A DNA stretch of 64,000 nucleotides, from NCBI GenBank assembly GCA_001784155.1, contig MFPL01000002.1:108520-172519 (forward strand), read 5' to 3'. The stretch is from Candidatus Levybacteria bacterium RIFCSPLOWO2_12_FULL_41_12 (GTDB lineage: Bacteria > Patescibacteriota > Microgenomatia > Levybacterales > UBA12049). The position numbers and the translations under genes are program-made. Numbering within the stretch: position 1 is the first letter of the stretch; every line of letters begins with the position of its first letter. Below are positions 4,940 through 62,908 of the stretch, piece by piece. The notes beneath the pieces are model-generated. The model was not told the origin of the DNA and did no database searches. It was given only the letters and a program-made list of their open reading frames with translations.

Positions 4940-6380
4940 ACTGGCTCACAACCTGATTAAATCCATTGACAAGCGTTTCTGAAGCGCTCTCAGCAGACCC
5001 TCCGGCCAGTATAGAATTAATTGCATCTTTAAGATAGGTGTTAAGTTTTGCATTTATTCCGTTATCGAAAGTGTTATCCACAAAGTATGAGGACCTCGCA
5101 AATGGAGCCTGTTTAACGATAGAATAAACATAGCTGTTGTCTTTAAGCCTTTCTGAAAGATTCTTATTTGAGTACAGCTCACCAAACAGCCTAGTACGAG
5201 ACTCCTCTGTAAAAAGTTTTTCCTGAGTGTCTTTTCTTGCCAAAAATTTCATAAAGAGAAACGCTTCCTTCTGATGCTTGCTTTCCGAAGATACTCCTTC
5301 TGCCCAATAACTCGCTAGAGCTATCTTTTCTCCCTCCGCAAGCTGCGGAACAGGAACTATTTCAAATGAGAGATTCGGATTTATAGCCTTAAGGGTAAAG
5401 AAATCCCAGGAATAGCCAAAAAACATAGCTAAGTTTCCTTTCGCAAATGCGAGTATCGAATTGTCCAAGGTCTTATTCCAGACGCTTTCATCTCCCTCAG
5501 CAAAAGAAGTATAAAAATTTAACGCATCCGTTAATCTCTGGCTAGGCTTAAGACCGTAGACGTCTACGCCGTTTTGTATGAAGAGAAGCGACAGGATATC
5601 CGGAGAGTGGGTTACGTTCTCAAATGTCCCCATAGCAGCTCCTGCAGTCTTAATATTACCCTCTTCGTCTTTAACCGTCAGCTCCAGCGCATAATCACGG
5701 AATTCTTCCCAGCTTGCAGGAGGATTAACTCCGGCTGCCTGAAACATATCCCTGTTAACAAAAAGTGCTAGCGTATCTATATGCAGAGGAATACCGTATA
5801 TTGCCCCGTTTTTGACCAAATCAGCTTCGGCTACAGGATAAAAATTGTCCAAAAACTCTTCCTTTCTGATTACGCTTTCGGGCAAAGGAGATAAGTCTTC
5901 TTTAAGCATTGGGTACCACGTGTTGTGAAACCTGAATATATCAGGTCCCGCTCCGTTTGCAATTCTTGAGCTTAACCTTTCCCTATACTCTTTTACATCT
6001 TGCTTTGAGTAATCTACTTTTATATTTGGGTTTTCTCTTTCAAAATCCGCTATTACAGGCTGCATAACTGCTGGGTCTTCCCAAAGCCCCCAATAAGTAA
6101 GCGTAACATTCTTATCTTTTTTTCCTCCCAAAGAGCTTATAAGACTAATTGCTAAAAACCCAACTATTAAAACCACCAAAAGGCCTACGATTAACTTAAC
6201 TGTGCGTATCGAGAGAAATCTTGATAAGAAAGACTTCCCCTCATCCACAGGAGGAGGAGCTGGAGGCTGAGGGACGGATGACTGTGAAGGCAGAGGCACA
6301 ACTGGAGGAACAGGGGGAGGTTTTGACATACCAGCCTGTCCGGACGTATTGGGATTTTGAAAAATCGTTTCGTCGCTCAC
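4920..6380 (-). CDS. ABC transporter extracellular solute-binding protein (family 1, sugar-type) with Pro-rich N-terminal linker and membrane anchor
   Basis: 486 aa. N-terminal PPPVPPVVPLP...PPAPPP low-complexity region, then a TM helix, then an SBP_bac_1-like body (TYWGLWEDP..., GIPLHIDTLALFVNRDMF). Confidence 0.6.
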   Translation of the reverse strand: MSDETIFQNPNTSGQAGMSKPPPVPPVVPLPSQSSVPQPPAPPPVDEGKSFLSRFLSIRTVKLIVGLLVVLIVGFLAISLISSLGGKKDKNVTLTYWGLWEDPAVMQPVIADFERENPNIKVDYSKQDVKEYRERLSSRIANGAGPDIFRFHNTWYPMLKEDLSPLPESVIRKEEFLDNFYPVAEADLVKNGAIYGIPLHIDTLALFVNRDMFQAAGVNPPASWEEFRDYALELTVKDEEGNIKTAGAAMGTFENVTHSPDILSLLFIQNGVDVYGLKPSQRLTDALNFYTSFAEGDESVWNKTLDNSILAFAKGNLAMFFGYSWDFFTLKAINPNLSFEIVPVPQLAEGEKIALASYWAEGVSSESKHQKEAFLFMKFLARKDTQEKLFTEESRTRLFGELYSNKNLSERLKDNSYVYSIVKQAPFARSSYFVDNTFDNGINAKLNTYLKDAINSILAGGSAESASETLVNGFNQVVSQYESQTK

Positions 6381-21612: not shown

Positions 21613-23001
21613 TTAGAAAAAGGTTCGCATTTTTTCTATAGAGGTTTTTAAAACATTGTATTCGGTTTTACCATTGTCTTTTTGATGATGAATTTGATTT
21701 CTGATAAATGTATGTATACTAACCTCATTTGCATTTCTTTTATAAGGAGATTTTTTAGGTTCTTTTTTCTCACCAACAAAATAATCATTATCAAAATCTT
21801 TAATCTTCTTATCGTCTCCATTTATGAATTTTAGTTCTTCGAAAAGCTCGTTGTGATATTCTTCGGTCGCAAGATTAAAAGCTAGGTAATTTGTTTCGTT
21901 AGCTGAAATATAGGGTAAAACTCTTTTTTGTATCGCAGATGTATCCATACCGTTGTTATTGATTATGCTAATTCTTACATTACCGTTGTAAAATAATTGT
22001 TTTACTAAAAGAGGAGAGTGGGACGTAAGAATGATTTGTGCTTCTTTGGAAAATTCCAGTAAAAACTTAACAAATTTTTCCTGTAACGTTGGGTGCAGAT
22101 GAAGTTCGGGTTCGTCAATTAAAATTATTAATTGCTTACCGCTCTGCTTGGCTAAGTAAAAAGAATACAAAAGGGCAAAAATCATCTCATAGCCCGAACC
22201 AAGGTCATCCAATAAAATTTGCTGATTATTATCTTTCTTTGTGGCAAAGAATGCGTTTTTAAATGGTTGATAGTTATCTAAAAAATCTAATTTTATTTGA
22301 GAACCACTAATCTCATGAAATTTTTTTACAGCTTCTGACAGGAAGTTATTTTCAACTTTGTCTTTTTTGATTCTAGTATCTAATTCCTCATTCAAATTAT
22401 CAACTTGAGTTTTTTTTAGATATTGATAGCTAAAATCTTCCATCAATCTATCGAATCTAGTTGTGTTATAGGTGCCAGAGCGAATTTGAAAGATACGATT
22501 TTTGTCTAAGAATAAAACATCATTTTCGTCAAATCTTTTTGATTTCCAAGGATTATTTACCCCAACTCTTAAATCAGGACTATCTTCCTTTATGTTTTCG
22601 CCATCTGCTTGGATAAATCTGCGATCAAGAATGATCATGCTAGATAAATATGCCTTAAAATCTCGGGCTCTAATATTTGCTTTGAAAGAAAACCCATGCG
22701 CTTTGAATGATCCTGTAATTGTTTTTGTAACTTCAAAATTAGCTTTTGCATATAATTCAATTAGAATATCATTCTTCGGATCATTGAAGTCGCTAATAGA
22801 TACGGACTCTGTTTTATATTCCAATAATGGAAGTGCGAGAGCATCTAAAAGGGCTGTTTTCCCACTTCCATTTTCGCCCACAAATACATTTAATCCCGAA
22901 CCCTCGTTTATATTATCTGGCGTATTTATATCCTCAATTTCGAAATATTTTTCTGGTGAAAATAATCTAAAATTTTTTATTTTAAGTGATTTTATAAACA
23001 T
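21613..23001 (-). CDS. ABC-type ATPase of the OLD/AriA/PtuA/GajA-like family (no TOPRIM or HNH detected)
   Basis: 462 aa. N-terminal IKNFRLF...VFVGENGSGKTALLDAL (Walker A). Long coiled or insert region. LIILIDEPELHLHPTLQ (Walker B, D-loop, H-loop). About 110-aa C-terminal tail with no recognisable nuclease motif. Confidence 0.65.
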   Translation of the reverse strand: MFIKSLKIKNFRLFSPEKYFEIEDINTPDNINEGSGLNVFVGENGSGKTALLDALALPLLEYKTESVSISDFNDPKNDILIELYAKANFEVTKTITGSFKAHGFSFKANIRARDFKAYLSSMIILDRRFIQADGENIKEDSPDLRVGVNNPWKSKRFDENDVLFLDKNRIFQIRSGTYNTTRFDRLMEDFSYQYLKKTQVDNLNEELDTRIKKDKVENNFLSEAVKKFHEISGSQIKLDFLDNYQPFKNAFFATKKDNNQQILLDDLGSGYEMIFALLYSFYLAKQSGKQLIILIDEPELHLHPTLQEKFVKFLLEFSKEAQIILTSHSPLLVKQLFYNGNVRISIINNNGMDTSAIQKRVLPYISANETNYLAFNLATEEYHNELFEELKFINGDDKKIKDFDNDYFVGEKKEPKKSPYKRNANEVSIHTFIRNQIHHQKDNGKTEYNVLKTSIEKMRTFF

Positions 23002-25877: not shown

Positions 25878-26720
25878 TCAAGCTAGACGTGTCAGCGTCG
25901 CAGCAGTCGAAGTTTCATTGAAGTCTCCTTCGTACAATCCAAACTTTCTATTTCTGGCTTCGTCTATCAATTCGTCTCTCCAAATTCCACGAATTCTATC
26001 TTCAGATGTTCCTTTTTGTTTTTCTTTGTTCAATAAATGTAGCCCTCTACGACCAGCACTTCCTCTTCGTGGGTTTCTGTATTCTTCGTCCCAATTATTT
26101 GCAAGTTCAATATCCGAATTTTCTGCTACAACAAGTAAATAAATTTTATCTGATGCGATAACAATTGAGCAGATTGCAGAAGCACGACCGTCAGGCCTCT
26201 TTATTTGTGAAGCAAGATTATCAAAGTCAGGACCGCTGAATATAGCACCACTACTTGGGTGAGTATGTATTATTCCAAATAATTCTTCCTGTGGGAAAAA
26301 TTTAAATCCTGGGGACTGTTCTGTAGTAATTAAGTTCCTACCGAATACATAGTAGTCTGAAGCCCAATCAGGTTTATCACGTCGCCAATCTTCCTTTTGA
26401 AGTAAATCCTGAAGTCTCTGGGCTGTTTCTGATTCAGATAAACCTGTTAAATCCTCAAAAAGTGTTGCTCCCACAAAGTCTCTATGTTGTCCCTTGAATG
26501 CACCATCAATAGAAAGTTTTTCCTGAGTTCTCGTTAAAAATGCCATCTGTTCTGCATCTGTTTCGCTCTCCTGTTTTTTCATTCCATGAAACCCTGATAT
26601 AAGCTCAGGTTCATCGATCGCCACTGTTCTTGGAAGTTCGTCAAATCTCTTTCCTTCTAACGATAAAAGCGTAGGATGGGCTAAACCCTCTTGTCCTTCT
26701 ATGTTGGTTATATCCGACAT
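25878..26720 (-). CDS. JAB/MPN (JAMM) metalloprotease-domain protein, RadC/Mov34-like motif
   Basis: 280 aa. EELFGIIHTHPSSGAIFSGPD fits the JAMM motif E-x(n)-H-x-H-x7-S-x2-D exactly. The N-terminal roughly 130 aa are unassigned. Confidence 0.55.
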   Translation of the reverse strand: MSDITNIEGQEGLAHPTLLSLEGKRFDELPRTVAIDEPELISGFHGMKKQESETDAEQMAFLTRTQEKLSIDGAFKGQHRDFVGATLFEDLTGLSESETAQRLQDLLQKEDWRRDKPDWASDYYVFGRNLITTEQSPGFKFFPQEELFGIIHTHPSSGAIFSGPDFDNLASQIKRPDGRASAICSIVIASDKIYLLVVAENSDIELANNWDEEYRNPRRGSAGRRGLHLLNKEKQKGTSEDRIRGIWRDELIDEARNRKFGLYEGDFNETSTAATLTRLA

Positions 26721-42923: not shown

Positions 42924-43671
42924 TAGCCTTCTCCTTTTTGAAGCAATCTACCAAAGGGTCGATTGACTCCTTCATAAAGAAAATTTCTCTGGTATCTAGA
43001 ACTGAATATGCGTTTAGCATATTTGCCGAGAGTATGCTTACTCCCTCAATATTTCTTCCTGCCCTCACTACATTTTTAGCATCCGCTCCCGGAGTTACGA
43101 GAAGAAGCTTTCTCTTTTTCCCTCCGTCACCTAAAACCTTAAGGCTTTGGGCTAAGACGCGGGTCTTTGGCTCAATTTTTTCAAATCCCGTTATTATTTT
43201 TATCTCTCCGTCTCTTAGTTTTGCCGATAAGGCCGAGGAAAGAGCAGCTTTTTTCATATTCTTAGGAAATTTCATTGAGTAGTCTCTGGGTTTTGGCCCA
43301 AAAACCAGTCCTCCCTTTACGAAGATAGGCGCTCTTATACTTCCGTGTCTTGCTCTTCCTGTTCCTTTTTGTCTATAAATTTTCCTTGACGAACCCTTAA
43401 CTTCTCCTCGTGTTTTTGTCGAAACAGTCCCTTGCCTTTGATTTGCAAGATATACTCTTACAGCTTGAGCCATAAGTTTGTCATTCACTTTTACACCGAA
43501 AATCTCCTTAGGAAGATTTATTTTCCCAACGGACTTTCCTTTTAAATCGTAAACGCTTAATTTAAGCCCTGTTTCGCGAGGCAACTCCTTTTTGACAGCA
43601 GCGGACTTTCGTACGCTCTTTGATGGGGTTTTAAGTTTTGAGCCTTTAGCTTTAAGCTTTTTAACTGGCAT
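42916..43671 (-). CDS. rplD: 50S ribosomal protein L4 (extended)
   Basis: 251 aa. QGTVSTKTRGEVKGSSRKIYRQKGTGRARHGSIRAPIFVKGG core. Confidence 0.9.
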   Translation of the reverse strand: MPVKKLKAKGSKLKTPSKSVRKSAAVKKELPRETGLKLSVYDLKGKSVGKINLPKEIFGVKVNDKLMAQAVRVYLANQRQGTVSTKTRGEVKGSSRKIYRQKGTGRARHGSIRAPIFVKGGLVFGPKPRDYSMKFPKNMKKAALSSALSAKLRDGEIKIITGFEKIEPKTRVLAQSLKVLGDGGKKRKLLLVTPGADAKNVVRAGRNIEGVSILSANMLNAYSVLDTREIFFMKESIDPLVDCFKKEKANG

Positions 43672-44476
43672 CTTTTACCTCCTCCTTTGGCTCGCCAGAG
43701 TTTTCAACGTCGGCGGCCTTTGGCTCGCTTGGAGCAGGTTCCAAACTTGCTGAGGCGGCTTTCTCTTCAGCTTTTACTTCTACTACCACTTCTTCTACCG
43801 GAACTTCTGTTGTCTCTGTATAAAGCGGGACAAACTTCTTGCTTTCTCCGGTTTTTTTAATTATTACCAGACTCCCCTTAAACCCGGGAACGAGCCCTTT
43901 TATATAGAGCTCGTCATCTTTTACATCCACGACCAAGAGATTTTTAAGAGTTACGTCGGCATTTCCCATTCTTCCGGCCATCTTCTTTCCCCTGTAGACT
44001 CTTCCCGGAGTTGTGCCTTGTCCTATGGCACCCGGAGCTCTATGTCTGTCTGATTGTCCATGGGTTTTTGGACCTCCGTGGAAACCATGTCTCTTTACTA
44101 CGCCGGCAAAACCTTTTCCCTTTGAATGACCTTGCACATCTACGATGTCTCCCGGCTTAAAAACGTCTGATGCCTTAAGCTTTGATCCCTTTTCAGGAAG
44201 TACCTCGTCTGCATCAACAACTCTTATCTCTTTTAAAAAACGGGGGGCAATTTCTTGCCCTGCTTTTTTTGCGTGTCCCAAAACTGCCCTGCTGGCCTTT
44301 TTCTTAATTCCAATACCTAGCTGGACAGCCGAGTATTTGTCTTTCTCCTCATTCTTCACAGACACCACAAAAGCACCTCCCGTATTTATTTGAGTAACGG
44401 GAACTCTTGCTCCGTTTTCTAAAAACTTCTGTGACTGTGTTCCTTTGATTCCTATAATTCCTAACATATTTGACAT
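43661..44476 (-). CDS. rplC: 50S ribosomal protein L3 with about 60-aa acidic low-complexity C-terminal extension
   Basis: 271 aa. KGKGFAGVVKRHGFHGGPKTHGQSDRHRAPGAIGQG core plus tail VEEVVVEVKAEEKAASASLEPAPSEPKAADVEN. Confidence 0.9.
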   Translation of the reverse strand: MSNMLGIIGIKGTQSQKFLENGARVPVTQINTGGAFVVSVKNEEKDKYSAVQLGIGIKKKASRAVLGHAKKAGQEIAPRFLKEIRVVDADEVLPEKGSKLKASDVFKPGDIVDVQGHSKGKGFAGVVKRHGFHGGPKTHGQSDRHRAPGAIGQGTTPGRVYRGKKMAGRMGNADVTLKNLLVVDVKDDELYIKGLVPGFKGSLVIIKKTGESKKFVPLYTETTEVPVEEVVVEVKAEEKAASASLEPAPSEPKAADVENSGEPKEEVKDAS

Positions 44477-44502
44477 ATTTGATTCTTCAGGCTACAAACT
44501 AC

Positions 44503-44528
44503 AAAAAAAGCGACCACATAGTGTCGCT
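44503..44528 (-). terminator. Terminator/attenuator-like hairpin plus U7 in the leader between a promoter and rplC
   Basis: Minus-strand RNA AGCGAC-ACUAUGUG-GUCGCU-UUUUUUU. It lies about 25 nt upstream of the rplC ATG and downstream of the TTGCAT-17-TATAAT promoter. Confidence 0.4.
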
Positions 44529-44611
44529 CTATTCAGAGTTTTAGCTTAGAACGAGAAAACTATGTAGCTACAATCACCTCCAGTGTTTGTCTAGCCATTA
44601 AGTTAAATGTA

Positions 44612-44640
44612 ATTATAGTCAAGAATGAGCCTAAATGCAA
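44612..44640 (-). promoter_or_regulatory. Sigma70-like promoter (TTGCAT, 17-nt spacer, TATAAT) immediately after the inserted gene's stop
   Basis: Minus strand CCCTTGCAT-TTAGGCTCATTCTTGAC-TATAAT-TACATTTAAC. The -35 is at 44640..44635 and the -10 at 44617..44612. Confidence 0.45.
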
Positions 44641-44657
44641 GGGAGAAGGGAGAGTGG

Positions 44658-45068
44658 CTAGCGTTCGCCCGTAATTCGCTTTACAACCTTGTCCGCCTCC
44701 GCTATTCGAGGTTCATGCTCTCTCCTCAATTCAGCAAGCCCTCTGGCTATTTCGTTGTATCTAGTCTCTACTACCTCACGTTCTGCCTTTAATAAACCAC
44801 CCATTTGTTGGTCGAATTCTGAATTTACCTTTGCAAAATGCTCGCGGCGGGCAATAGCCCCTCCTATTTGCTCTATACGTGCCCCAATGGGTAGACGTGT
44901 CAGAGCTAGAAGTCTTTCTACGGATTCACCAGCTCCTACTCCTTTACCAATTTCTGCAAGCCAGGATAATTTTTGTTCGTCAGGGATTGCTGGATCAGAA
45001 CTTATTTGATGAGCTAAGGTAAATGGATCTTGTGGTGTTGGTGTGCTTGGTGTATTTGAAGCCGACAT
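44658..45068 (-). CDS. Hypothetical protein (136 aa), GC/Ala/Arg/Glu-rich, inserted between rpsJ and rplC
   Basis: Clean ORF whose composition contrasts with the flanking r-protein genes. No recognisable motifs. Confidence 0.45.
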   Translation of the reverse strand: MSASNTPSTPTPQDPFTLAHQISSDPAIPDEQKLSWLAEIGKGVGAGESVERLLALTRLPIGARIEQIGGAIARREHFAKVNSEFDQQMGGLLKAEREVVETRYNEIARGLAELRREHEPRIAEADKVVKRITGER

Positions 45069-45080
45069 ACTTCTATTATA

Positions 45081-45389
45081 CTACATTCGGATTTCTACAT
45101 TGACTCCCGCCGGTAGTTCCAGATGGGTAAGACTGTCTATTGTCTTATCTGTAGGCTGAAGAATATCTATTAGTCTTTTATGAACTTTGATTTGGAAATG
45201 ATCTCGTGCGTCCTTATCTATGAAGGTCGACTTATTTACTGCATACACGCTTCTTTTTGTAGGCAAGGGGATAGGACCGACAACTTTTGCTCCAGTTCTT
45301 ATTGCCGTATCAAGTATCTGCTGACAGCAAGAGTCAATTACTCTTGCGTCATAGCTTTTGAGTCTAACTCTAATTCTTCCCTTTGGCAT
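45081..45389 (-). CDS. rpsJ: 30S ribosomal protein S10
   Basis: 102 aa. RIRVRLKSYDARVID...PLPTKRSVYAV. Confidence 0.95.
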   Translation of the reverse strand: MPKGRIRVRLKSYDARVIDSCCQQILDTAIRTGAKVVGPIPLPTKRSVYAVNKSTFIDKDARDHFQIKVHKRLIDILQPTDKTIDSLTHLELPAGVNVEIRM

Positions 45390-45415: not shown

Positions 45416-46597
45416 TTATGCTATTATTTTGCTTATAACTCCAGCCCCAACGGTTTTTCCGCCTTCTCTGACTGCGAATCTCAATCCTTCCTCAAGTGCG
45501 ATGGGGGCTATGAGCTTAACTGTCATTTTTGTGGAGTCTCCAGGCATTACCATCTCAACTCCTGTAGGAAGCGCAACTTCTGCTGTAACGTCTGTTGTTC
45601 TGATATAAAACTGTGGTCTGTATCCGGTAAAGAAAGGTGTGTGTCGTCCGCCCTCTTCTTTTGTAAGAATATAAACTTCTGCTTCAAATTCTTTGTGAGG
45701 GGTGATTGATCCTGGTTTTGCGAGAACCTGTCCGCGTTCTACGTCTTCTTTTTCTACTCCTCTGAGTAAAACTCCTACGTTATCTCCCGCCTGGCCTTCA
45801 TCGAGCTGCTTTTTAAACATTTCAACTCCGGTTACGACAGTTGACTTCGTATCTTTAATTCCAACTATCTCAACCGTGTCGTTAATCTTAACAATTCCTC
45901 TTTCAATTCGGCCAGTTACTACTGTTCCTCGTCCTTTAATTGAGAAAACGTCCTCAACAGGCATAAGGAATGGTTTGTCTGTTTCACGAGTTGGTGTTGG
46001 AATATCATTATCTACCGCATCCATTAAAGCTGCTATTTGCTTCTCTGCTTCTGCGTCTCCTTCAAGCGCCTTAAGAGCAGATCCTCTTATAATTGTCACT
46101 TTATCTCCGGCATATTGATATTTTGTAAGAAGTTCTCTTACTTCCATCTCAACTAGATCCAAAAGCTCTGCGTCTTGTACCATGTCACACTTATTAAGAA
46201 AGACTACTACAGATGGCACTCCTACTTGTCGCGCGAGTAATATATGCTCCCGAGTTTGTGGCATAGGCCCGTCGGGAGCTGAGACTACTAGAATTGCACC
46301 GTCCATTTGGGCGGCACCTGTAATCATATTCTTAATGTAATCTGCGTGTCCTGGAGCGTCGATGTGTGCGTAGTGGCGTTTGTCTGTTTCGTATTCGATG
46401 TGGGAAATATTGATCGTGACTCCGCGAGCCTTTTCTTCTGGGGCGTTATCGATATCTTCGTATTTCTTGGCTGTAGCTTGTCCTTTCTTTGAGAGCACAG
46501 TAGCAATAGCCGCAGTAAGAGTTGTCTTGCCGTGGTCTACGTGACCGATGGTACCGATATTTACGTGTGGTTTTGTTCTTTCGTATTTGTCTGCCAT
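45416..46597 (-). CDS. tuf: Elongation factor Tu
   Basis: 393 aa. [25 protein letters not shown] and all three EF-Tu domains. Confidence 0.97.
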
Positions 46598-46978: not shown

Positions 46979-47629
46979 ATGTTTAGAATTCAAAAGCTTG
47001 ACCTTTTAATTTCCATCTATATTCTTTTTGTGATTCTTTCAAATGTGATGGGAAATAAAACTTTCCCTCTTCCCGACATAGGACCAATTCATCTCAATGC
47101 AAGTGTTTCAATCTTTTTAATCCCTTTGATTTTTACGATAAACGACATGATTACTGAAGTTTTTGGAAAAGAGAGAACCAGAAGCATTATCCGATCCAGT
47201 CTTATCGTAATTTTTTTGACTCTCGTCTATTCTTTGCTTGCCACTAGCCTTCCTCCTTCCATGAGGTTTGCGCCGATGGAAGACGCTTACGATACGATCT
47301 TTGCCGTTTCAGCCAAATTCTCTGCGGCTTCTCTTATTGCTTTTGCGTCTGCGGAATTTTTGGACGTTTATGTATTCGCAAAGATAAGAGAAATGCTTGG
47401 GAAGAAAGCTTTGTGGCTCAGGACAAACTTATCAAACTTCGCTTCACAATTTATAGATACTGCTGTCTTTATGGTATTGGCTTTTTATGCACTCGATCTC
47501 TCATTCTCGGAAAACTTATCTTTCATCCTGAGCCTCTCAATTCCTTACTTCTTACTTCGATGTGTTCTGTCTATAATTGAGACCCCTCTTGTTTACCTCG
47601 GGGTCAAATGGCTTAAGGGGGAAAAATGA
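46979..47629 (+). CDS. Queuosine-precursor transporter family membrane protein (YhhQ/VUT, DUF165-like)
   Basis: 216 aa with 6 TM helices. AEFLDVYVFAKIREMLGKKALWLRTNLSNFASQFIDTAVF matches the conserved YhhQ core. Confidence 0.6.
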   Translation: MFRIQKLDLLISIYILFVILSNVMGNKTFPLPDIGPIHLNASVSIFLIPLIFTINDMITEVFGKERTRSIIRSSLIVIFLTLVYSLLATSLPPSMRFAPMEDAYDTIFAVSAKFSAASLIAFASAEFLDVYVFAKIREMLGKKALWLRTNLSNFASQFIDTAVFMVLAFYALDLSFSENLSFILSLSIPYFLLRCVLSIIETPLVYLGVKWLKGEK

Positions 47630-48393
47630 TCACTACGGCTGTCAAAACCCACAAAATTACAACTACTGATAAAGACATCCTAAGAATTCTGGATCGCTAT
47701 ATGCCGCGCCTTGCGGAGGGCTCGATAGTTGCGATAGCTTCGAAGATAGTCGCCATAACTGAGGGAAGATTAGTTAAAAAGACTTCAGAAACCCAGAAGG
47801 ATGAGTTGGCTGCAAAAGAGGCAGAATACTATCTTCCCAGAGAAGAAAATAAGTACGGCTTCTTAATAACTGTAAAGCATAATCTCCTCGTTGCATCGGC
47901 AGGCATCGACGAATCCAATGGTAATGGCTATCTGGTTCTTTGGCCTAAAGATCCACAGAAAAGCGCCAATATGATTCGCGAGTATTTGGTAAAAAAACAC
48001 AAAGTAAAAAGGGTTGGGGTAATAATAACCGACAGCAAGCTCACCCCGCTTCGTTGGGGGGTGACGGGATACGCCTTAGCGAGCAGCGGATTCAGGGTCT
48101 TGAACAGTTACATCGGCAAGCCTGATATCTTTGGCAGGCTTATGCATGCGGAAAAACTAAATGTTGCAGATTCCTTGGCAGCAGCTACGGTAGCAGTAAC
48201 AGGAGAGGGATCAGAGCAAACTCCAATCGCAATAATTGAAGACTTGCCTTCCGTAGTTTTCCAAAAAAGAAATCCAACTAATAAAGAAATAAAAGAACTT
48301 CACATAAGCCTTACAGATGATGTTTTCTATCCTTTGCTTAAAGCTGTAAAATGGAGGGTCAGAGTCCAAAGACCAGAAGAAGAGAAAAAATAA
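47626..48393 (+). CDS. CofE/F420-0:gamma-glutamyl ligase-family protein (function here unknown)
   Basis: 255 aa. VAIASKIVAITEGR...ASAGIDESNGNGYLVLWPKDP...GVIITDSK...GVTGYALASSG pattern of the PF01996 fold. Translationally coupled to the yhhQ-like gene. Confidence 0.45.
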   Translation: MITTAVKTHKITTTDKDILRILDRYMPRLAEGSIVAIASKIVAITEGRLVKKTSETQKDELAAKEAEYYLPREENKYGFLITVKHNLLVASAGIDESNGNGYLVLWPKDPQKSANMIREYLVKKHKVKRVGVIITDSKLTPLRWGVTGYALASSGFRVLNSYIGKPDIFGRLMHAEKLNVADSLAAATVAVTGEGSEQTPIAIIEDLPSVVFQKRNPTNKEIKELHISLTDDVFYPLLKAVKWRVRVQRPEEEKK

Positions 48394-48523
48394 TAAACGC
48401 ACAAAAAAGAATTAATGCTGTAGGGGAAGTAAGCATATCCTCTTTTCTCACTCGCCATACTCTTTTAATTTTTCTTTTTGCCATTCTATTAAGTATAGGC
48501 ACTATTTTTTAAAAGTGTCAAGT

Positions 48524-49147
48524 CTAGTTCTTAGGCTTTAATAACCAGCCAGCCATACCGTATGCCGTATTGTAATAATAAATATTTGCGCAGACCGTAA
48601 TTCTATTTTTGCCGGGAAAAGATTTCCAATTATTATAACTCCCCTTTGCATACTCCGCGCCTGTAAGCGTATAAGTCCTGAGTGAGCTTTTTACCAGCTC
48701 TAAGGTGAGGCATTTTTGGCTTGAGGCTATATATGAATATTCACAATCATTTGTCATTCCCCCTACGGTTTTTGTTGAACTATTTCCTCCGCTTATGATA
48801 TTTATCTTAAAATCCTTATTGGGAATGCAGGTTTCAGAACTTCCGTATTTACCGTTACCATTGTCGTCTTTCCAAATACCCAAATAATATCTGTACTTGT
48901 TGGTGCTTGAGGCCGCTGTCTCTTTTGATATTCCCTCTCTCTCCATTTGATTGATCACACTGCGCTCCACATCTGTTACTCCTTTCACAGCCTGGGAGAG
49001 GGAATTGTATTGGTATGCTCCGAAAAGAACTAAAAGCATTACTCCAAGACCCAGCGCCTTAGGCAGGGACATTATCCAGCCAAAAACACTCTTGTTTTGT
49101 CTTCGGTTAGAAACTCTTCTTCTTGATTTTGAGGATTTTTTTGCCAC
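48524..49147 (-). CDS. Hypothetical membrane-anchored secreted protein (Cys-containing, Asn/Gly/Tyr-rich)
   Basis: 207 aa. Basic N-terminus, TM helix, then an extracytoplasmic domain with 4 Cys. Confidence 0.4.
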   Translation of the reverse strand: MAKKSSKSRRRVSNRRQNKSVFGWIMSLPKALGLGVMLLVLFGAYQYNSLSQAVKGVTDVERSVINQMEREGISKETAASSTNKYRYYLGIWKDDNGNGKYGSSETCIPNKDFKINIISGGNSSTKTVGGMTNDCEYSYIASSQKCLTLELVKSSLRTYTLTGAEYAKGSYNNWKSFPGKNRITVCANIYYYNTAYGMAGWLLKPKN

Positions 49148-49277
49148 CTAATCTAGTGAACAATAATTCGTGCTGTTTGTCAATTAAAATTTTATATTTT
49201 TATTGTCAAGGGCCAAATTGTGGCATTTTTGAGATCAAATCATATATATAAATTAATAAAAACTATAAGGTGCTATA

Positions 49278-49502
49278 TTGCCTCCAATGAAAGAAAGGCT
49301 TGGCCTAGAAACAGGATTCATACTCCTTGTCCCCGTAATTATTATTGTTATCGGGATTATATTTCTAATTTCTCAATTACAGGAAAAGTCAAAAGACCCG
49401 AGACAAGAATTCCTGAAGAAGCTCAAGGAAAAAGAGCAAAAGTTAAACGACAAAGAAGAAAAACTGAAAAAGCTAGAGGAGAACCTAAGATATAGGGTCT
49501 AA
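49278..49502 (+). CDS. Possible small membrane protein with charged coiled-coil tail (74 aa)
   Basis: TM helix (GFILLVPVIIIVIGIIFLI) followed by a KE-rich helix. Convergent with fusA. Confidence 0.3.
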   Translation: MPPMKERLGLETGFILLVPVIIIVIGIIFLISQLQEKSKDPRQEFLKKLKEKEQKLNDKEEKLKKLEENLRYRV

Positions 49503-49503
49503 A

Positions 49504-51636
49504 CTACTCTACTCTTCCCGTGAATGTGGAGGCGGCGACCATTTGCGCCTGAATATTTTGGGGGACTTCTTCATAGTGAGATGGCTCCATATAATAAGAG
49601 GCTCGTCCTTGAGACATAGAACGGAGAGTTGTCGCGTACCCCGAAAGCTCAGCCAGAGGTGCCATAGCTAGAATTATTGTCGCTTTTCCGCGTTCTTCGG
49701 ATCCTGAAATCTGCGCTCTTTTTGAAGAAAGGTCTCCTATAACATCTCCCATAAATTCAGATGGAGTAGTGACTTCTACCTTCATGATCGGCTCAAGAAG
49801 CGTAAGCTTTCCGTTTCTTGCAGCCTGCTGAAGAGCCTGACTGGCTGCGATTTTAAATGCAATGTCCGATGAATCAACATCATGATAGGACCCATCATAA
49901 ACCTCAACGTCGAAGTCTACCATTGGATAGCCGAGATATATTCCGTTTTCCATCGTTTCCTTAACACCTTTTTCAATTGAAGATATGAATTCTACGGGAA
50001 TTGCTCCTCCTTTAACGGAATTAATAAATTCATATCCCTCTCCCCTGGGCTTTGGAATTACGCGAAGCAGACAGTGACCATACTGTCCTCGTCCTCCGGA
50101 TTGACGGATATATTTTCCCTCCCCCTTGGCTTCCTGTTTTATGGTCTCTTTATATGCCACCTGAGGCGCGCCAACATTTGCCTCTACTCCAAAGTCGCTC
50201 TTCATAGTATTTACTTTTACCTCCAGCTGAAGCTCCCCTACTCCTGAAATAATAGTTTGTCCTGTTTCATGGTTTGCCTTTACCTGAAATGTCGGATCCT
50301 CATCCATAAGGCGTTTTAGCGCAAAACCCAGTTTTTCCTGATCTGTTTTGGTCTTGGGCTCTATTGCTAAAGAAATAACAGGCTCTGGGAAAGAAATCTT
50401 TTCAAGAACTATTGGGGCTGTTTCATCACAAAGCGTATCTCCTGTTCCTGTCTCTTTAAGTCCTACTATTGCCACTATTTCTCCGGCAAAAGCTTCTTTA
50501 ATTTCCGCTCTTTGATTTGAGTGCATCATGAGTAATCTGCCTATTCTCTCTCTCGTGTCGCGGGAAGAGTTATAAGCATAAGAACCGGCTCCTATGGTTC
50601 CCGAATAAACTCTAAAATACGTAAGTTTTCCGACATGGGGATCGTTTTGGATCTTAAAAGCAAGGCCTGTAAATGGTGCATCTTTTGTGAGCTGACGGAC
50701 TTCTTCAGTCCCGGTTTTCGGATTTGTTCCTTTTACCTCTTTAAGGTCGACAGGGGATGGAAGGTATTCTACGACTGCGTCAAGAAGCGGCTGGACTCCT
50801 TTATTTCGAAGTGAAGTTCCTGCATAAATTGGTACCAGCTTATATGCAATAACTGCTGCACGCAATGCGCGTCTAAGTTCATCCTCTGTGGGTTCTTCAC
50901 CGCTGAGGTATTTATCCAGAAGCTTATCATCTGTCTCTGAAATCTTTTCAATAAGCTTGTGTCTGTATTTCTCGACTTGATCTTTCAAATCCTCCGGAAT
51001 ATCCGAAGTTACATCGTATTTGGCACCTAATTCGTCCGATCCCCATCTATAAGCCTTGCGCGTTAAAAGATCTACATTTCCTACGTAGGTTTGCTCGGCT
51101 CCTATTGGTAATACCATTATTGCAGTATTTGCACCCAGCTTATCCTCGATAGATTTTACAGTAGCTAGAAAGTCTGCTCCCAACTTATCCATTTTGTTTA
51201 CAAAGCAAATTCTAGGAACTTTATACTTGTCCGCCTGTCTCCAGACCGTTTCAGACTGAGACTGCACTCCTTCTTCTGCATCAAGAACGGTAATTCCTCC
51301 ATCAAGCACTCTTAAAGAACGCTCTACTTCTGCAGTAAAGTCTACGTGTCCGGGAGTATCTATGATATTAAATCTGTACTCGACTCCTTTATAAAGTCCC
51401 GCTGTTGGTGTCCAAAATGCAGTGGTGGCAGCGCTCACAATAGTAATTCCGCGCTCTCTTTCCTCTTTCATCCAGTCCATGACAGTTGTCCCCTCATCAA
51501 TGTCTCCGATTTTGTGGGTTTTTCCGGTGTAGTAAAGAATACGCTCCGTAGTTGTAGTTTTTCCCGCGTCAATATGGGCAATAATGCCTATATTTCTAAC
51601 CCTATCCAGTTCTTGTGCTTTCTGCTCGTCTGCCAT
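49504..51636 (-). CDS. fusA: Elongation factor G
   Basis: 710 aa. AHIDAGKTTTTE, DTPGHVDF, NKMD and domains III-V. Confidence 0.97.
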   Translation of the reverse strand: MADEQKAQELDRVRNIGIIAHIDAGKTTTTERILYYTGKTHKIGDIDEGTTVMDWMKEERERGITIVSAATTAFWTPTAGLYKGVEYRFNIIDTPGHVDFTAEVERSLRVLDGGITVLDAEEGVQSQSETVWRQADKYKVPRICFVNKMDKLGADFLATVKSIEDKLGANTAIMVLPIGAEQTYVGNVDLLTRKAYRWGSDELGAKYDVTSDIPEDLKDQVEKYRHKLIEKISETDDKLLDKYLSGEEPTEDELRRALRAAVIAYKLVPIYAGTSLRNKGVQPLLDAVVEYLPSPVDLKEVKGTNPKTGTEEVRQLTKDAPFTGLAFKIQNDPHVGKLTYFRVYSGTIGAGSYAYNSSRDTRERIGRLLMMHSNQRAEIKEAFAGEIVAIVGLKETGTGDTLCDETAPIVLEKISFPEPVISLAIEPKTKTDQEKLGFALKRLMDEDPTFQVKANHETGQTIISGVGELQLEVKVNTMKSDFGVEANVGAPQVAYKETIKQEAKGEGKYIRQSGGRGQYGHCLLRVIPKPRGEGYEFINSVKGGAIPVEFISSIEKGVKETMENGIYLGYPMVDFDVEVYDGSYHDVDSSDIAFKIAASQALQQAARNGKLTLLEPIMKVEVTTPSEFMGDVIGDLSSKRAQISGSEERGKATIILAMAPLAELSGYATTLRSMSQGRASYYMEPSHYEEVPQNIQAQMVAASTFTGRVE

Positions 51637-61468: not shown

Positions 61469-62044
61469 TTATATCAATTTGTATTCTATTTTTGTGGTTT
61501 TGGAGTTTTTCAACTGCTGAGGGGAGTTTCTTATGTTTTTTCTATAGTGCTTTTTTGTAATTATCTTGCTGTAGTCACTGACTTTTTCCATAAATTCCAC
61601 GCCATTTAGGTGATCCATCTCATGGAATATAATTCTTGCCAGAATCCCGTCTGCCTTTAATCTAAATAGCAAACCGCGCTCGTCATAGGCTTCGACTTGG
61701 ACTTCCCTTGGTCGTAAAACAGGACCGAATAGATCTCCTATGCTTCCGCAGCCTTCGTAAATGAGCGACTTATCTTTTGATTGGAAAGTGATTTTGGGAT
61801 CTATATAGACTCTTACTTTATCTGTCTTCCCGAGCTTTCTAGCCTTCGTAGTTCTAGGGTGAGTTATGAAAACCATATAGTTTTCGCCTATTTGGGGCGC
61901 GGCAATTCCTATTAGATCTGCTTTATGCATGGAATCAATTAAATTCCGGACCAACTTCTTGAACTCAGGCGATTTAAAGTTTTTAATAAGCCTATTCTTC
62001 GCTTTAAGTCTTCGGTCCCCTGCCTGAATAATCTTTTTTACCAC
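61469..62044 (-). CDS. def: Peptide deformylase
   Basis: 191 aa. GIAAPQIG, EGCGS and HEMDHLNG motifs. Confidence 0.9.
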   Translation of the reverse strand: MVKKIIQAGDRRLKAKNRLIKNFKSPEFKKLVRNLIDSMHKADLIGIAAPQIGENYMVFITHPRTTKARKLGKTDKVRVYIDPKITFQSKDKSLIYEGCGSIGDLFGPVLRPREVQVEAYDERGLLFRLKADGILARIIFHEMDHLNGVEFMEKVSDYSKIITKKHYRKNIRNSPQQLKNSKTTKIEYKLI

Positions 62045-62109: not shown

Positions 62110-62550
62110 ATGGTTGAGGGTGCCCGGAGAAGTCCTATCGTTGTTCAAACCAAAGAAGAACTGCACAGAGAGTCGGTTATAGAAAACCTCTCTGTAGAGG
62201 ATAGGCCTCCTGTTCTTATTCCAACAATCACCTCCCCAATAGGAAGGGTTTTTAATAATGAGATTGCAGGATATTATGCTTATGTTCCTCCTCTAGGGTC
62301 AACCCTTCGGGACAGACTGAAAGGACCTCATGGCGGAATAAAAGAATTTATATCACCGGATGGAGCGACAACGGGATTTGCAAAGCCTATCAAGTTGACC
62401 GTTGAGGAGGGCGAGGCAGTTCTAATAAGAAGAGGTATTGCGCTTAGAAAAGGTCCGGGAGCACTTGAAGAAACTCCTGTTCGTAAATGGGCGTCCAATA
62501 TCCCCGGCGCACGCCGCTATTTAGGGTTTGGCAGCCCAGGCCCCTGGTAG
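62110..62550 (+). CDS. Hypothetical protein, GC/Gly/Pro/Arg-rich (compositionally atypical)
   Basis: 146-aa ORF with no recognisable motifs. Composition unlike the local genes. Confidence 0.3.
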   Translation: MVEGARRSPIVVQTKEELHRESVIENLSVEDRPPVLIPTITSPIGRVFNNEIAGYYAYVPPLGSTLRDRLKGPHGGIKEFISPDGATTGFAKPIKLTVEEGEAVLIRRGIALRKGPGALEETPVRKWASNIPGARRYLGFGSPGPW

Positions 62551-62605: not shown

Positions 62606-62908
62606 ATGGGAGGACCAATAGAGAAGGGCGCACCACAGACGGAAGCGGATACGGCTCCAAGGGGAAGCCTGTTTACAGCTAGGATTTTCGAATGGGAAAT
62701 GGGTGTTTATAAAGCGGCTGGAAGATCTATACAAGGCTTATGCGTGGAATTTGTATCTGCAAAAGCTGATAGGGTAAGACTTAGAGGCTTTAGAGACCAT
62801 CAAGTTCTTCTAGTAGTAACTCACGATAAAGCAGTAGATTTTACTCCTTACCTTCAAAGGGTCCAAGAACTTCGGGGACAGCCGAAATCGGGCACATCAG
62901 AAAGCTAA
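62606..62908 (+). CDS. Hypothetical protein, GC-rich (compositionally atypical)
   Basis: 100-aa ORF that follows the previous one in the same orientation. Confidence 0.3.
   Translation: MGGPIEKGAPQTEADTAPRGSLFTARIFEWEMGVYKAAGRSIQGLCVEFVSAKADRVRLRGFRDHQVLLVVTHDKAVDFTPYLQRVQELRGQPKSGTSES

What the first reader, a model, noticed from the sequence alone, without database searches (positions are those of the whole stretch)
44477..45068. S10 operon interrupted: foreign-looking gene between rpsJ and rplC, then a strong promoter and a terminator-hairpin leader before rplC
rpsJ and rplC are normally adjacent. Here a 136-aa GC/Ala/Arg-rich ORF (44658-45068) sits between them. Immediately after its stop is a near-consensus TTGCAT-17-TATAAT promoter at 44640-44612. 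A roughly 130-nt leader follows, containing the hairpin AGCGAC-ACUAUGUG-GUCGCU plus U7 (44503-44528), only 25 nt before the rplC start. This looks like a relocated S10-leader-type attenuator. In E. coli, L4 regulates the operon through a leader terminator upstream of rpsJ.
Basis: partly seen in the sequence, partly recalled or inferred. Interest (0 to 1): 0.55.

Follow-up and report, generated by a model that had tools for sequence, protein, structure and literature searches.

The report
Leader-peptide attenuator before ribosomal rplC operon
In front of the main ribosomal-protein operon of this Levybacteria (CPR) genome sits a conserved, undescribed ~110-nt leader with its own promoter, a 12-codon mini-gene and a terminator/antiterminator switch. 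It probably adjusts ribosomal-protein transcription to how busy ribosomes are, and the 136-aa gene next to it is only one of many interchangeable inserts at that junction.

Summary
On the minus strand the order is tuf, rpsJ, a 136-aa ORF, a TTGCAT-17-TATAAT promoter, a ~130-nt leader with a hairpin and U7, then rplC.

ORF136 did not interrupt the operon. In 75 related Levybacteria/Microgenomates genomes the rpsJ-rplC gap is never under 114 nt. About 30 of them carry unrelated cargo genes there, and nearly all have a terminator hairpin 1-35 nt before rplC.

The window's leader type recurs in 92 distinct sequences from genomes and metagenomes, always before rplC. Rfam 15 has no match.

All 92 contain a short ORF of 9-23 codons, and every length difference is a multiple of three. 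It starts 11-19 nt after the -10 box. Its stop codon lies inside a 9-nt strand (GCUACAUAG) that pairs with the terminator's loop and 3' arm (93% paired; slid controls 24-62%). The two folds are nearly equal in energy. A GGAGG box sits 11-16 nt before the stop in 80 of 92.

Best reading: a ribosome-mediated, leader-peptide type transcription attenuator that senses translation in general, not an L4-type S10 leader. This is inferred from comparative sequence analysis only. It is a new variant of a known kind.

The parts
45081..45389 (-). rpsJ (ribosomal protein S10). It is the last gene of the tuf-rpsJ unit.
   Evidence: Pfam PF00338, E=2.4e-32. ORF list.
45075..45080 (-). TATAAT directly after the rpsJ stop codon and 6 nt before the ORF136 ATG. 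It may be a -10 box giving a leaderless ORF136 mRNA.
   Evidence: Sequence. The L083 homologue has TATAAT 7 nt before its ATG. Other first genes in the window also have TATAAT 6-12 nt before the start. The promoter role is inferred.
44658..45068 (-). ORF136, an accessory ('cargo') gene of unknown function. It is all-helical: three short helices and one 73-residue helix.
   Evidence: No Pfam or NCBIfam hit. Only 7 cluster representatives among 1.84 billion proteins. A 53% homologue sits at the same site in L083. A 37% homologue sits elsewhere, beside a GIY-YIG gene. AF2 pLDDT is 86, and there is no PDB fold match.
44612..44640 (-). Leader promoter: TTGCAT (-35, 44640-44635), a 17-nt spacer, and TATAAT (-10, 44617-44612).
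   Evidence: It is unique in the window. The same hexamers and spacing lie upstream of the leader in 110 loci. Activity was not tested.
44504..44612 (-). Whole class-1 rplC leader, as matched by the covariance model.
   Evidence: Model R1 gives 77.3 bits, E=8e-14. It is the only significant hit in the window, and in the related loci every hit lies upstream of rplC.
44560..44598 (-). uORF of 12 codons plus UAG, encoding MARQTLEVIVAT. The ATG lies 13 nt after the -10 box.
   Evidence: An in-frame open uORF is present in 92 of 92 distinct leaders. Lengths are 9, 10, 11, 12, 13, 22 and 23 codons. 102 of 103 promoter-proximal ATGs are in frame with the stop.
44573..44581 (-). GGAGGUGAU, a Shine-Dalgarno-like box inside the uORF. 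It is a 9-nt complement of the canonical 16S 3' tail.
   Evidence: GGAGG is present in 80 of 92 leaders. Its 3' end lies 14 nt (59 leaders) or 11 nt (11 leaders) before the stop codon. GGAGG-type sites precede operon-internal genes in the window. Pairing with the U-tract is not supported beyond controls.
44560..44568 (-). Antiterminator 5' strand GCUACAUAG. Its last three bases are the uORF stop codon.
   Evidence: It pairs with 44513-44521. 93.2% of cells are paired in 94 sequences, against 24-62% for slid registers, and compensatory AU->GC changes occur.
44537..44561 (-). Variable middle hairpin (P2). In the window it is AGUUUU...AAAACU. It may be a pause hairpin.
   Evidence: Different sequences form a hairpin at this position in other leaders. 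The segment's MFE is <= -3 kcal/mol in 60% of leaders. Support in the window itself is weak.
44513..44521 (-). 3' partner of the antiterminator: the terminator loop plus the first bases of its 3' arm (CUAUGUGGU).
   Evidence: In 83 of 92 leaders the nascent RNA, folded up to the end of the loop, already pairs the 5' strand with the loop.
44503..44530 (-). Intrinsic terminator: AGAGCGAC / loop ACUAUGUG / GUCGCUUU, followed by a U-run.
   Evidence: Top hit of the terminator scan. The stem is 86-90% paired, with compensatory changes. 68 of 75 related genomes have such a hairpin 1-35 nt before rplC.
43661..44476 (-). rplC (L3), the first gene of the rplC-rplD-rplW-rplB-rpsS-rplV-rpsC... operon. 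It has no SD, and no promoter fits between the terminator and the ATG.
   Evidence: Pfam PF00297. ORF list. Upstream sequences.

Best explanation
The element is a promoter-proximal transcription attenuator for the rplC-led ribosomal-protein operon, of the ribosome-mediated (leader-peptide) kind.

Proposed sequence of events:
1. Transcription starts a few bases after the TATAAT box at 44617-44612. This gives an mRNA whose AUG is only about 4-10 nt from the 5' end. Such short-leader or leaderless starts look common in this genome.
2. The 12-codon uORF ends with a UAG that is part of the strand GCUACAUAG.
3. If that strand is free, it pairs with the loop of the downstream terminator as soon as the loop is made. 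The pairing then zips into the 3' arm. The terminator cannot form, and RNA polymerase reads into rplC.
4. If a ribosome is translating, terminating or held at the end of the uORF, it covers that strand. The hairpin plus U-run then forms, and transcription stops 26 nt before rplC.
5. The GGAGG box lies 11-16 nt before the stop. It is placed so that the anti-SD of a ribosome with its P/A sites on the last codons can stay paired to it. In half of the leaders it also forms an SD-5nt-UUG start for a 3-codon nested ORF. Either way it would prolong ribosome occupancy of the strand.

The net logic is that ample, fast translation lowers transcription of the r-protein operon, while scarce or stalled ribosomes raise it. 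The peptide has no run of any one amino acid, so the sensed quantity would be translation in general rather than one amino acid.

What is shown: conservation, position, the ORF signature, the two mutually exclusive pairings and their near-equal energies.

What is inferred: that the uORF is translated, the direction of the effect, the role of GGAGG and the physiological signal.
For: - Position. The promoter, leader and terminator sit directly before rplC, with no room for another promoter. 68 of 75 related genomes have a terminator hairpin and U-run 1-35 nt before rplC. The covariance model hits only this site in the window and only upstream of rplC elsewhere.
- ORF signature. 92 of 92 distinct leaders have an open in-frame ATG...stop. 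Lengths are 9, 10, 11, 12, 13, 22 and 23 codons, so every indel is a multiple of 3. 102 of 103 ATGs lying 5-30 nt after the -10 box are in frame. Frame 0 is open in 91 of 92, against 49 and 5 of 92 in the other two frames. There are 73 different peptides.
- Switch. The antiterminator is 93.2% paired against 24-62% for slid registers, with 7 compensatory cells that 0 of 500 shuffles reach. The terminator is 86-90% paired. The best duplex partner of the terminator's 3' half is the strand ending at the uORF stop in most class-1 loci.
- Folding. 83 of 92 nascent prefixes already pair the strand with the loop. The full-length MFE is the antiterminator in 46 and the terminator in 41. The median energy difference is 0.1 kcal/mol. 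Blocking the uORF through stop+10 always gives the terminator.
- GGAGG. It is present in 80 of 92 leaders at a fixed distance from the stop. UUG lies 5 nt after it in 38.
- Plausibility of translation. At least 8 first genes in the window have TATAAT 6-12 nt before their start codon, and SD sites are used by operon-internal genes.
- Precedent. Leaderless short-ORF attenuators are known in mycobacteria (bioRxiv 10.1101/834739, found).
Against: - There are no expression data. The transcription start site, uORF translation and termination efficiency are all unmeasured.
- The sequences are closely related, so true covariation is modest: 2-3 pairs with double changes. The shuffle controls overstate significance for related sequences.
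- The antiterminator strand and the terminator are conserved in sequence. That pattern would also fit a protein-binding site.
- 12 of 92 leaders lack GGAGG, so it is not essential.
- The direction of regulation cannot be derived from sequence. A ribosome released quickly at the stop would leave the strand free.
- The second leader class, in 27 related genomes, has only 1-4-codon ORFs and a different hairpin pair. The uORF design may therefore not be universal.
- An anti-antiterminator, which classical attenuators have, was not convincingly found (mean z = -0.85).
Confidence: 0.5

Rival explanations
1. Autogenous r-protein control. A protein of the operon (L4 by analogy with E. coli, or L3) binds the conserved hairpin or the GCUACAUAG strand and shifts the terminator/antiterminator balance. 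This would resemble the E. coli S10 leader or the B. subtilis L10 and L20 leaders. The uORF would be secondary.
For: The geometry is like the S10 leader, with a hairpin and U-run a few tens of nt before the first cistron of the operon that encodes L4. The terminator hairpin and its loop are unusually conserved in sequence across species whose L3 is only 45-63% identical, as a protein site would be. Terminator/antiterminator r-protein leaders are known (PMC4538822 and PMC1865079, listed).
Against: No Rfam r-leader matches at E<=10. The other leader classes before rplC in sister lineages use quite different hairpin sequences, which argues against one conserved protein site. No extra structured domain exists: the middle hairpin is variable. 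The sequence conservation is already explained by the two-way pairing and by coding. This rival does not explain the strict reading-frame conservation.
Confidence: 0.25
2. A constitutive leaky terminator or insulator. The hairpin only damps and insulates transcription entering rplC from the strong leader promoter and from tuf-rpsJ and cargo read-through. The alternative pairing and the small ORF would have no regulatory role.
For: No terminator lies between rpsJ or ORF136 and the leader, so an insulator would make sense at a junction that accepts cargo genes. The generic terminator scan shows such hairpins are not rare.
Against: A promoter placed about 105 nt upstream of a terminator with nothing but an 11-codon ORF between them is hard to explain as insulation. 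The conserved ATG, the conserved frame, the stop codon embedded in a strand complementary to the terminator, and near-isoenergetic alternative folds in 92 leaders are not expected for a passive terminator.
Confidence: 0.12
3. An independent small gene. The promoter, 12-codon ORF and terminator would form a self-contained unit making a roughly 100-nt sRNA or a micropeptide with its own function, and it merely lies next to rplC.
For: The unit has a complete promoter and terminator. Terminated attenuator RNAs and leader peptides can act in trans (PMC7298713 and PMC7968998, listed).
Against: rplC would then have no promoter of its own, because only 1-35 nt separate the U-run from its ATG. The peptide sequence is poorly conserved, with 73 variants among 92 leaders. 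The element is never found anywhere except before rplC.
Confidence: 0.05
4. A foreign gene landed between rpsJ and rplC and brought, or forced the relocation of, an S10-type leader.
For: ORF136 is rare, compositionally a little GC-richer, and absent from nearly all relatives.
Against: The same leader is present in relatives with no insert (for example L006, gap 188 nt) and with unrelated inserts. Inserts always lie upstream of the leader promoter. In no relative are rpsJ and rplC adjacent: the minimum gap is 114 nt.
Confidence: 0.03

Closest known systems
Leader-peptide (ribosome-mediated) transcription attenuators of amino-acid operons (trpL, hisL, pheL)
   Same: A short ORF in the leader. 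An intrinsic terminator before the first structural gene. An antiterminator strand that overlaps the end of the ORF, so ribosome position decides which hairpin forms. A ribosome reaching the stop codon favours termination.
   Different: The peptide has no run of regulatory codons, so it would sense translation in general. No convincing anti-antiterminator (1:2 hairpin) was found. The mRNA has a very short leader and no SD before the AUG, and an SD-like box lies inside the ORF. It controls a ribosomal-protein operon.
Leaderless polycysteine short-ORF attenuators of mycobacteria (bioRxiv 10.1101/834739)
   Same: A promoter-proximal, leaderless or near-leaderless short ORF as the first cistron, whose translation attenuates the downstream operon.
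   Different: Those sense cysteine through Cys codons. Here there is no codon bias, and there is an explicit intrinsic terminator/antiterminator pair in a different phylum (CPR).
E. coli S10 leader (L4-mediated, NusA-dependent attenuation)
   Same: It regulates the operon that contains rplC and rplD through a hairpin plus U-run a few tens of nt before the first cistron.
   Different: It lies upstream of rpsJ, not rplC. It has a multi-hairpin leader of about 170 nt with no leader peptide (my own knowledge). It is confined to Gammaproteobacteria (PMC3616713). No sequence or structure match was found here.
Antibiotic-responsive ribosome-stalling attenuators (e.g. the msrD leader, PMC10314930; the vmlR/ARE-ABCF leaders, bioRxiv 10.1101/2022.12.05.519065)
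   Same: A short uORF upstream of a terminator. A ribosome stalled inside the uORF frees an antiterminator and turns the operon on, so impaired translation leads to read-through.
   Different: Those control resistance genes and depend on drug-specific arrest peptides. Here the target is the r-protein operon and the peptide is variable.
B. subtilis r-protein leaders with a terminator/antiterminator (L10 leader PMC4538822; L20 leader PMC1865079)
   Same: Transcription attenuation in front of an r-protein operon.
   Different: Those have a structured rRNA-mimic domain bound by the r-protein and no uORF.

Membership tests
E. coli-type S10 leader (L4 attenuator) | Located in the 5' leader of rpsJ, the first gene of the S10 operon | tested here: not met
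   The element lies between rpsJ (and ORF136) and rplC. rpsJ follows tuf after a 26-nt gap.
E. coli-type S10 leader (L4 attenuator) | Sequence and structure homology to described S10 or L4 r-leader families | tested here: not met
   cmscan against all 4227 Rfam 15 families found nothing in 44477-44657, either at E<=10 or at gathering thresholds.
E. coli-type S10 leader (L4 attenuator) | Attenuator hairpin followed by a U-run shortly before the first cistron | tested here: met
   The hairpin is at 44530-44507 and the U-run extends to 44503, 26 nt before the rplC ATG.
E. coli-type S10 leader (L4 attenuator) | L4 binds the leader and stimulates NusA-dependent termination | not testable with these tools
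   This needs biochemistry. No 23S rRNA of this lineage was available to test for mimicry.
Leader-peptide (ribosome-mediated) transcription attenuator | A short ORF within the leader transcript, maintained as an ORF in evolution | tested here: met
   92 of 92 leaders have an open in-frame ORF. All length variants are multiples of 3. 102 of 103 proximal ATGs are in frame.
Leader-peptide (ribosome-mediated) transcription attenuator | An intrinsic terminator between the ORF and the first structural gene | tested here: met
Leader-peptide (ribosome-mediated) transcription attenuator | A mutually exclusive antiterminator whose 5' strand lies within the ribosome footprint at the end of the ORF | tested here: met
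   The strand 44560-44568 includes the stop codon. It is 93% paired with the terminator loop and 3' arm.
Leader-peptide (ribosome-mediated) transcription attenuator | A cluster of regulatory codons for the sensed amino acid | tested here: not met
   The 73 peptides show no amino-acid run. The element is therefore not an amino-acid sensor, which is why it is filed as a variant.
Leader-peptide (ribosome-mediated) transcription attenuator | An anti-antiterminator (pause) hairpin pairing the ORF region with the antiterminator strand | tested here: inconclusive
   Complementarity between the start region and the strand is weak (mean z = -0.85; 21% of leaders below -1.64). A variable middle hairpin exists.
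Leader-peptide (ribosome-mediated) transcription attenuator | The ORF is actually translated, and translation changes termination | not testable with these tools
   This needs ribosome profiling or reporter assays.
r-protein autogenous leader (rRNA mimic) | A conserved structured domain resembling the protein's rRNA binding site | not tested
   No 23S or 16S sequence of the lineage was in hand. Apart from the terminator, the only conserved elements are the uORF end and GGAGG.

The most novel reading that the evidence does not exclude
Levybacteria, and probably Microgenomates more widely, would regulate their main ribosomal-protein operon by letting ribosomes themselves act as the effector, not through an r-protein repressor. 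A near-leaderless mini-ORF carries an internal Shine-Dalgarno tether that parks a ribosome on the antiterminator strand. Transcription of rplC, rplD and the following genes would then fall when free, active ribosomes are plentiful and rise when they are scarce or stalled. This would be a direct ribosome-counting feedback on ribosome synthesis, in a lineage with minimal regulatory repertoires.
Probability: 0.4. Interest if true: 0.78.

Novelty: new variant of a known kind. Interest (0 to 1): 0.62.

Why it matters
How r-protein synthesis is balanced outside the Gammaproteobacteria and Firmicutes is largely unknown. The E. coli S10 leader is narrowly distributed (PMC3616713), and I found no r-protein leader described for the Candidate Phyla Radiation in Rfam or in the paper library.

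This is a well-defined RNA element with about 100 natural variants. It sits in front of the largest r-protein operon of an uncultivated phylum. It combines a near-leaderless uORF, an internal SD-like box and a bistable terminator switch.

If it is ribosome-mediated, it would be a rare case of r-protein transcription reading out translation capacity directly. Its design is simple enough to test in vitro or in a heterologous host.

It also shows that the rpsJ/rplC junction is a recurrent landing site for accessory genes. This matters for annotating and interpreting 'interrupted' r-protein clusters in CPR genomes.

Tried and rejected
- Rfam at permissive and gathering thresholds: no family in the leader.
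- Generic sigma-70 scan: it misses the promoter because TTGCAT scores 3 of 6. The promoter was rescued by conservation.
- ORF136 function: Pfam and NCBIfam gave nothing. The AF2 model was good, but Foldseek against PDB gave no hit with E<1. The afdb50 library was unavailable.
- ORF136 as a mobile-element cargo: one distant homologue lies next to a small GIY-YIG gene, but I did not search for flanking repeats or an integrase around ORF136, so nothing speaks for it. Not pursued.
- Extension of the antiterminator by GGAGGUG pairing with the terminator base and U-tract, as suggested by the MFE: 87.7% paired, but slid controls reach 49-78% and there is no covariation. Rejected as the reason for GGAGG conservation.
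- Anti-antiterminator between the start-codon region and the antiterminator strand: weak.
- RNAalifold on 96 sequences returns only the terminator core. The alternative pairing had to be tested explicitly.
- Automatic search for an antiterminator in the other leader classes: inconsistent, so the conclusions are restricted to the window's class.
- A second copy of the leader elsewhere in the window, which would suggest a regulon: none found. The best other hit has E=0.6.
Full report
**What is in the window**

All features below are on the minus strand.

- tuf: 45416-46597.
- rpsJ: 45081-45389.
- A 136-aa ORF: 44658-45068.
- A 181-nt non-coding stretch.
- rplC: 43661-44476, followed by rplD, rplW, rplB, rpsS, rplV and rpsC.

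The non-coding stretch holds TTGCAT-17 nt-TATAAT at 44640-44612. It also holds the hairpin AGAGCGAC/ACUAUGUG/GUCGCUUU with a U-run at 44530-44503, which ends 26 nt before the rplC ATG.

Two details needed adjusting.
- The -35 hexamer matches the textbook TTGACA at only three positions, so the generic scan did not list the promoter. It is the only TTGCAT-N16-18-TAWAAT site in the 64 kb.
- ORF136 is only mildly GC-richer than its surroundings: 46.2% against a window mean of 40.4%, while rplC is 45.2% and tuf 44.1%.

**Which organism, and is the operon 'interrupted'?**

ORF136 is 100% identical to a partial hypothetical protein of a Candidatus Levybacteria genome. A scan of one genome per species with the S10 protein returned 80 loci. 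By their record titles most are Levybacteria, some Gottesmanbacteria or unclassified Patescibacteria, and many carry uninformative or evidently wrong titles such as 'uncultured Gammaproteobacteria'.

In the 75 loci where both genes could be placed, including the window itself, the rpsJ-rplC gap is never below 114 nt.
- About 46 loci have gaps of 114-383 nt with no ORF of 50 aa or more.
- About 30 have gaps of 450-1614 nt with ORFs on either strand.
- In two further loci more than 3 kb follows rpsJ.

The inserted ORFs are almost all unrelated to one another. Ten of them were scanned against Pfam, and all ten belong to different families: a cytidine-deaminase-like protein, peptide deformylase, a histidine phosphatase, an Asp/Glu racemase, an EamA transporter, an FtsJ methyltransferase, a NUDIX hydrolase, a Fic protein, an AAA_14/DUF4143 ATPase and a glyoxalase.

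ORF136 itself belongs to a tiny family, with 7 cluster representatives among 1.84 billion proteins.
- One member, 53% identical, sits at the same place, directly upstream of the same leader and rplC.
- Another, 37% identical, lies elsewhere beside a small GIY-YIG gene.
- It has no Pfam or NCBIfam match and no fold match. The confident AF2 model shows three short helices and one 73-residue helix.

The split between rpsJ and rplC is therefore a property of the whole clade. The junction is a hotspot that accepts assorted cargo genes, and ORF136 is one of them. Every cargo gene lies upstream of the leader promoter.

**The leader is the conserved object**

Printing the 170 nt upstream of rplC for all loci showed that most share an architecture, and about a third share the window's sequence type. 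That type has, in order:
- TTGCAT-N17-TATAAT;
- an ATG;
- usually GGAGGTG;
- GCTACATAG;
- a variable hairpin;
- AGCGACnCTATGTnGTCGC followed by a T-run;
- rplC.

A terminator-like hairpin and U-run lies 1-35 nt before rplC in most of the 68 of 75 loci where one was found. The few misses have one by eye.

A covariance model built from 25 leaders (A1, R1) finds one strong match in the window, at 44504-44612 (77 bits). It finds matches only upstream of rplC in the other loci. A pattern scan of metagenome contigs added 117 stretches. About 90 of these are the same leader, with an L3 gene 0-60 nt downstream.

Rfam 15 has nothing here. I found no paper describing an r-protein leader in CPR bacteria. 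The catalogue of 20 new r-leaders lists an L4 leader only for Archaeoglobi.

**A terminator and an antiterminator**

- In 94 distinct aligned sequences, the terminator stem is 86% paired, with compensatory changes.
- The nine bases GCUACAUAG (window 44568-44560) are complementary to the terminator's loop and the start of its 3' arm (44521-44513).
- Across the 94 sequences, 93.2% of cells form a pair in that register. Registers slid by 1-3 columns give 24-62%.
- Seven cells carry compensatory double changes (for example A-U to G-C), a number that none of 500 shuffles reached (the smaller set is).
- The sequences are related and well conserved. This is good evidence of maintained complementarity but only modest evidence of covariation.

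Thermodynamically the two folds are almost equal.
- The unconstrained MFE is the antiterminator in 46 leaders and the terminator in 41 leaders, out of 92.
- The median energy difference is 0.1 kcal/mol.
- In 83 of 92, the nascent RNA folded up to the end of the terminator loop already has the upstream strand paired to the loop. The antiterminator can therefore nucleate before the terminator's 3' arm exists.
- The window's own leader folds into the antiterminator (-36 kcal/mol; z = -2.2 against shuffles).

**A conserved mini-ORF ends inside the antiterminator strand**

In the window, ATG 44598-44596 opens a 12-codon frame (MARQTLEVIVAT). It ends with the TAG at 44562-44560, which is the last three bases of GCUACAUAG.

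Among 92 distinct leaders:
- Every one has an open, in-frame ATG...stop.
- The lengths are 9, 10, 11 (57 leaders), 12 (18 leaders), 13 (10 leaders), 22 and 23 codons. Every insertion or deletion is therefore a multiple of three. This includes a GC-rich hairpin-forming insertion of roughly 33-36 nt. The 12-codon class contains several unrelated peptide types.
- 102 of the 103 ATGs lying 5-30 nt after the -10 box are in frame with that stop.
- The uORF frame is open over the last 33 nt in 91 of 92, against 49 and 5 in the other two frames.
- The peptide varies widely (73 versions) and has no run of one amino acid.
- The stop is UAG in 70 and UAA in 22.

The ATG lies 11-19 nt after the -10 hexamer, with a mode of 12. 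The 5' UTR would therefore be only about 4-10 nt, and it contains no SD. That is not out of character for this genome. In the window, GGAGG-type SD sites precede mostly operon-internal genes. At least eight first genes have TATAAT 6-12 nt before their start codon, ORF136 among them.

**The GGAGG box**

- GGAGG is present in 80 of 92 leaders, often as GGAGGUGAU, a 9-nt complement of the canonical 16S 3' tail.
- Its 3' end lies 14 nt (59 leaders), 11 nt (11 leaders) or 13-16 nt before the first base of the stop codon.
- Its frame relative to the codons is not fixed, so it is an RNA-level signal.
- Pairing with the terminator base and U-tract, which the MFE suggested, is not better than slid controls.
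- At this distance a ribosome whose P/A sites are on the last codons could still have its anti-SD paired to the box.
- In 38 leaders a UUG lies 5 nt after it, in frame. This gives an SD-UUG-GCU-ACA-stop nested ORF.
- Either route would place or hold a ribosome on the antiterminator strand. This is inference.

**Most likely mechanism**

The anatomy is that of a leader-peptide attenuator.
- When no ribosome covers the end of the uORF, the strand pairs with the terminator loop and 3' arm, and RNA polymerase reads into rplC.
- When a ribosome is at or near the stop codon, its footprint reaches about 12 nt past the stop. This covers the strand but not the terminator, which starts about 25-35 nt downstream. 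The terminator then forms.
- Because there are no regulatory codons, the signal would be translation itself. Efficient ribosome loading and elongation would reduce operon transcription. Ribosome shortage or stalling would increase it. That would be a homeostatic loop for ribosome synthesis.

I put about 0.85 on 'a conserved transcription attenuator of the rplC operon with a terminator/antiterminator switch'. I put about 0.5 on the ribosome-mediated version with this polarity.

**Rivals**

1. An operon protein (L4 by analogy, or L3) binds the conserved hairpin or strand. This fits the geometry and the sequence conservation, and it cannot be tested here. It does not explain the reading-frame conservation, and sister lineages use different hairpins.
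2. A passive leaky terminator or insulator at a junction that accepts cargo. This does not explain a promoter immediately upstream, the uORF or the isoenergetic alternative fold.
3. An independent sRNA or micropeptide gene. This would leave rplC without a promoter.
4. It is contradicted by relatives with the leader and no insert.

**Comparison with known systems**

The element works like trp/his/pheL-type attenuators and like the leaderless short-ORF attenuators of mycobacteria (bioRxiv 10.1101/834739). Antibiotic-responsive uORF attenuators share the logic that impaired translation leads to read-through (PMC10314930).

It differs in four ways:
- It lacks regulatory codons.
- It lacks a clear anti-antiterminator.
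- It carries an internal SD-like box.
- It controls an r-protein operon.

It is not a member of the E. coli S10-leader family. Its position is wrong, it has no model match, and it has a uORF. Only the hairpin and U-run geometry is shared. I class it as a new variant of a known kind: a new RNA family with a known type of mechanism in a new context.

**Limits**

- Everything rests on comparative sequence analysis.
- No transcription start, termination site or translation has been measured.
- The class-1 sequences are fairly close relatives.
- The other leader classes before rplC were only looked at briefly.

Noticed in passing
L010, L013, L015, L019, L025-L031, L033, L034, L036, L038, L042-L045, L050-L053, L058 (upstream of rplC): A second leader type precedes rplC in 27 related genomes with short rpsJ-rplC gaps. 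It has a (T/A)GATGCCCAAA box, a small AAGCCUA...GGCU hairpin, and a terminator GGUAGCCUAnnGGCUAUC with U7-10. Tiny ORFs (AUG-UAA, AUG-AUA-UAA, AUG-AGG-UAA) end just before AAGCCUA.
   Followed up: partly
L039, L046, L047, L049, L057, L063: A third leader type has a TTGCG...TACAAT promoter and a 9-12-codon uORF ending in or next to AAGGCUAGCUUCGG. Its terminator is GAGGUGGCCnnnnGGCCGCUUU.
   Followed up: partly
L025, L028, L033, L034, L036 (first ~20 nt after rpsJ): A hairpin is built on the rpsJ stop codon itself (…AUGUAGnnn-loop-nnnCUAC), with no U-run. Its role is unknown.
   Followed up: no
L032:4677-4843; L097, L120, L153, L163: A GC-rich, hairpin-forming insertion of roughly 33-36 nt lies inside the uORF. 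It is always in frame and gives 22-23-codon uORFs, for example MARQTQATGLGGLLARREVIVAT.
   Followed up: partly
window 45075-45080; also 4920-6380, 25878-26720, 21613-23001, 61469-62044, 62110-62550, 62606-62908 (gene starts): Many first genes have TATAAT only 6-12 nt before the start codon, while GGAGG sites precede mostly operon-internal genes. This suggests leaderless or short-leader mRNAs are common in this Levybacterium.
   Followed up: partly
window 46979-49495: The str-operon neighbourhood is also porous. Between fusA (49504-51636) and tuf (45416-46597) lie four ORFs. Two of them, on the opposite (+) strand, carry Vut_1 and F420-ligase-like domains.
   Followed up: no
L002 (NCBI GCA_000994635.1, contig LBZN01000003.1): The public assembly of a genome encoding the same protein breaks its contig inside ORF136. 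It also shows tuf split into 345 + 43 aa, probably from assembly or frameshift errors or strain heterogeneity at this junction.
   Followed up: no
L022:3342-5998; L035:3344-5944: Very large inserts follow rpsJ. L022 has three ORFs, including a 534-aa ORF that looks like a multi-pass membrane protein by eye. L035 has an 866-aa ORF. Neither was scanned against any family library. No rplC lies within 3 kb.
   Followed up: no
window 44244-44261: A GGGGCAA-TTTC-TTGCCC(T) hairpin inside rplC is flagged as terminator-like on both strands. It is probably a chance match within coding sequence.
   Followed up: no
L001:4336-5086: The only ORF136 homologue found away from the rplC junction lies 40 nt downstream of a 97-aa GIY-YIG protein gene. 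This is a possible hint of mobility for this small gene family.
   Followed up: no
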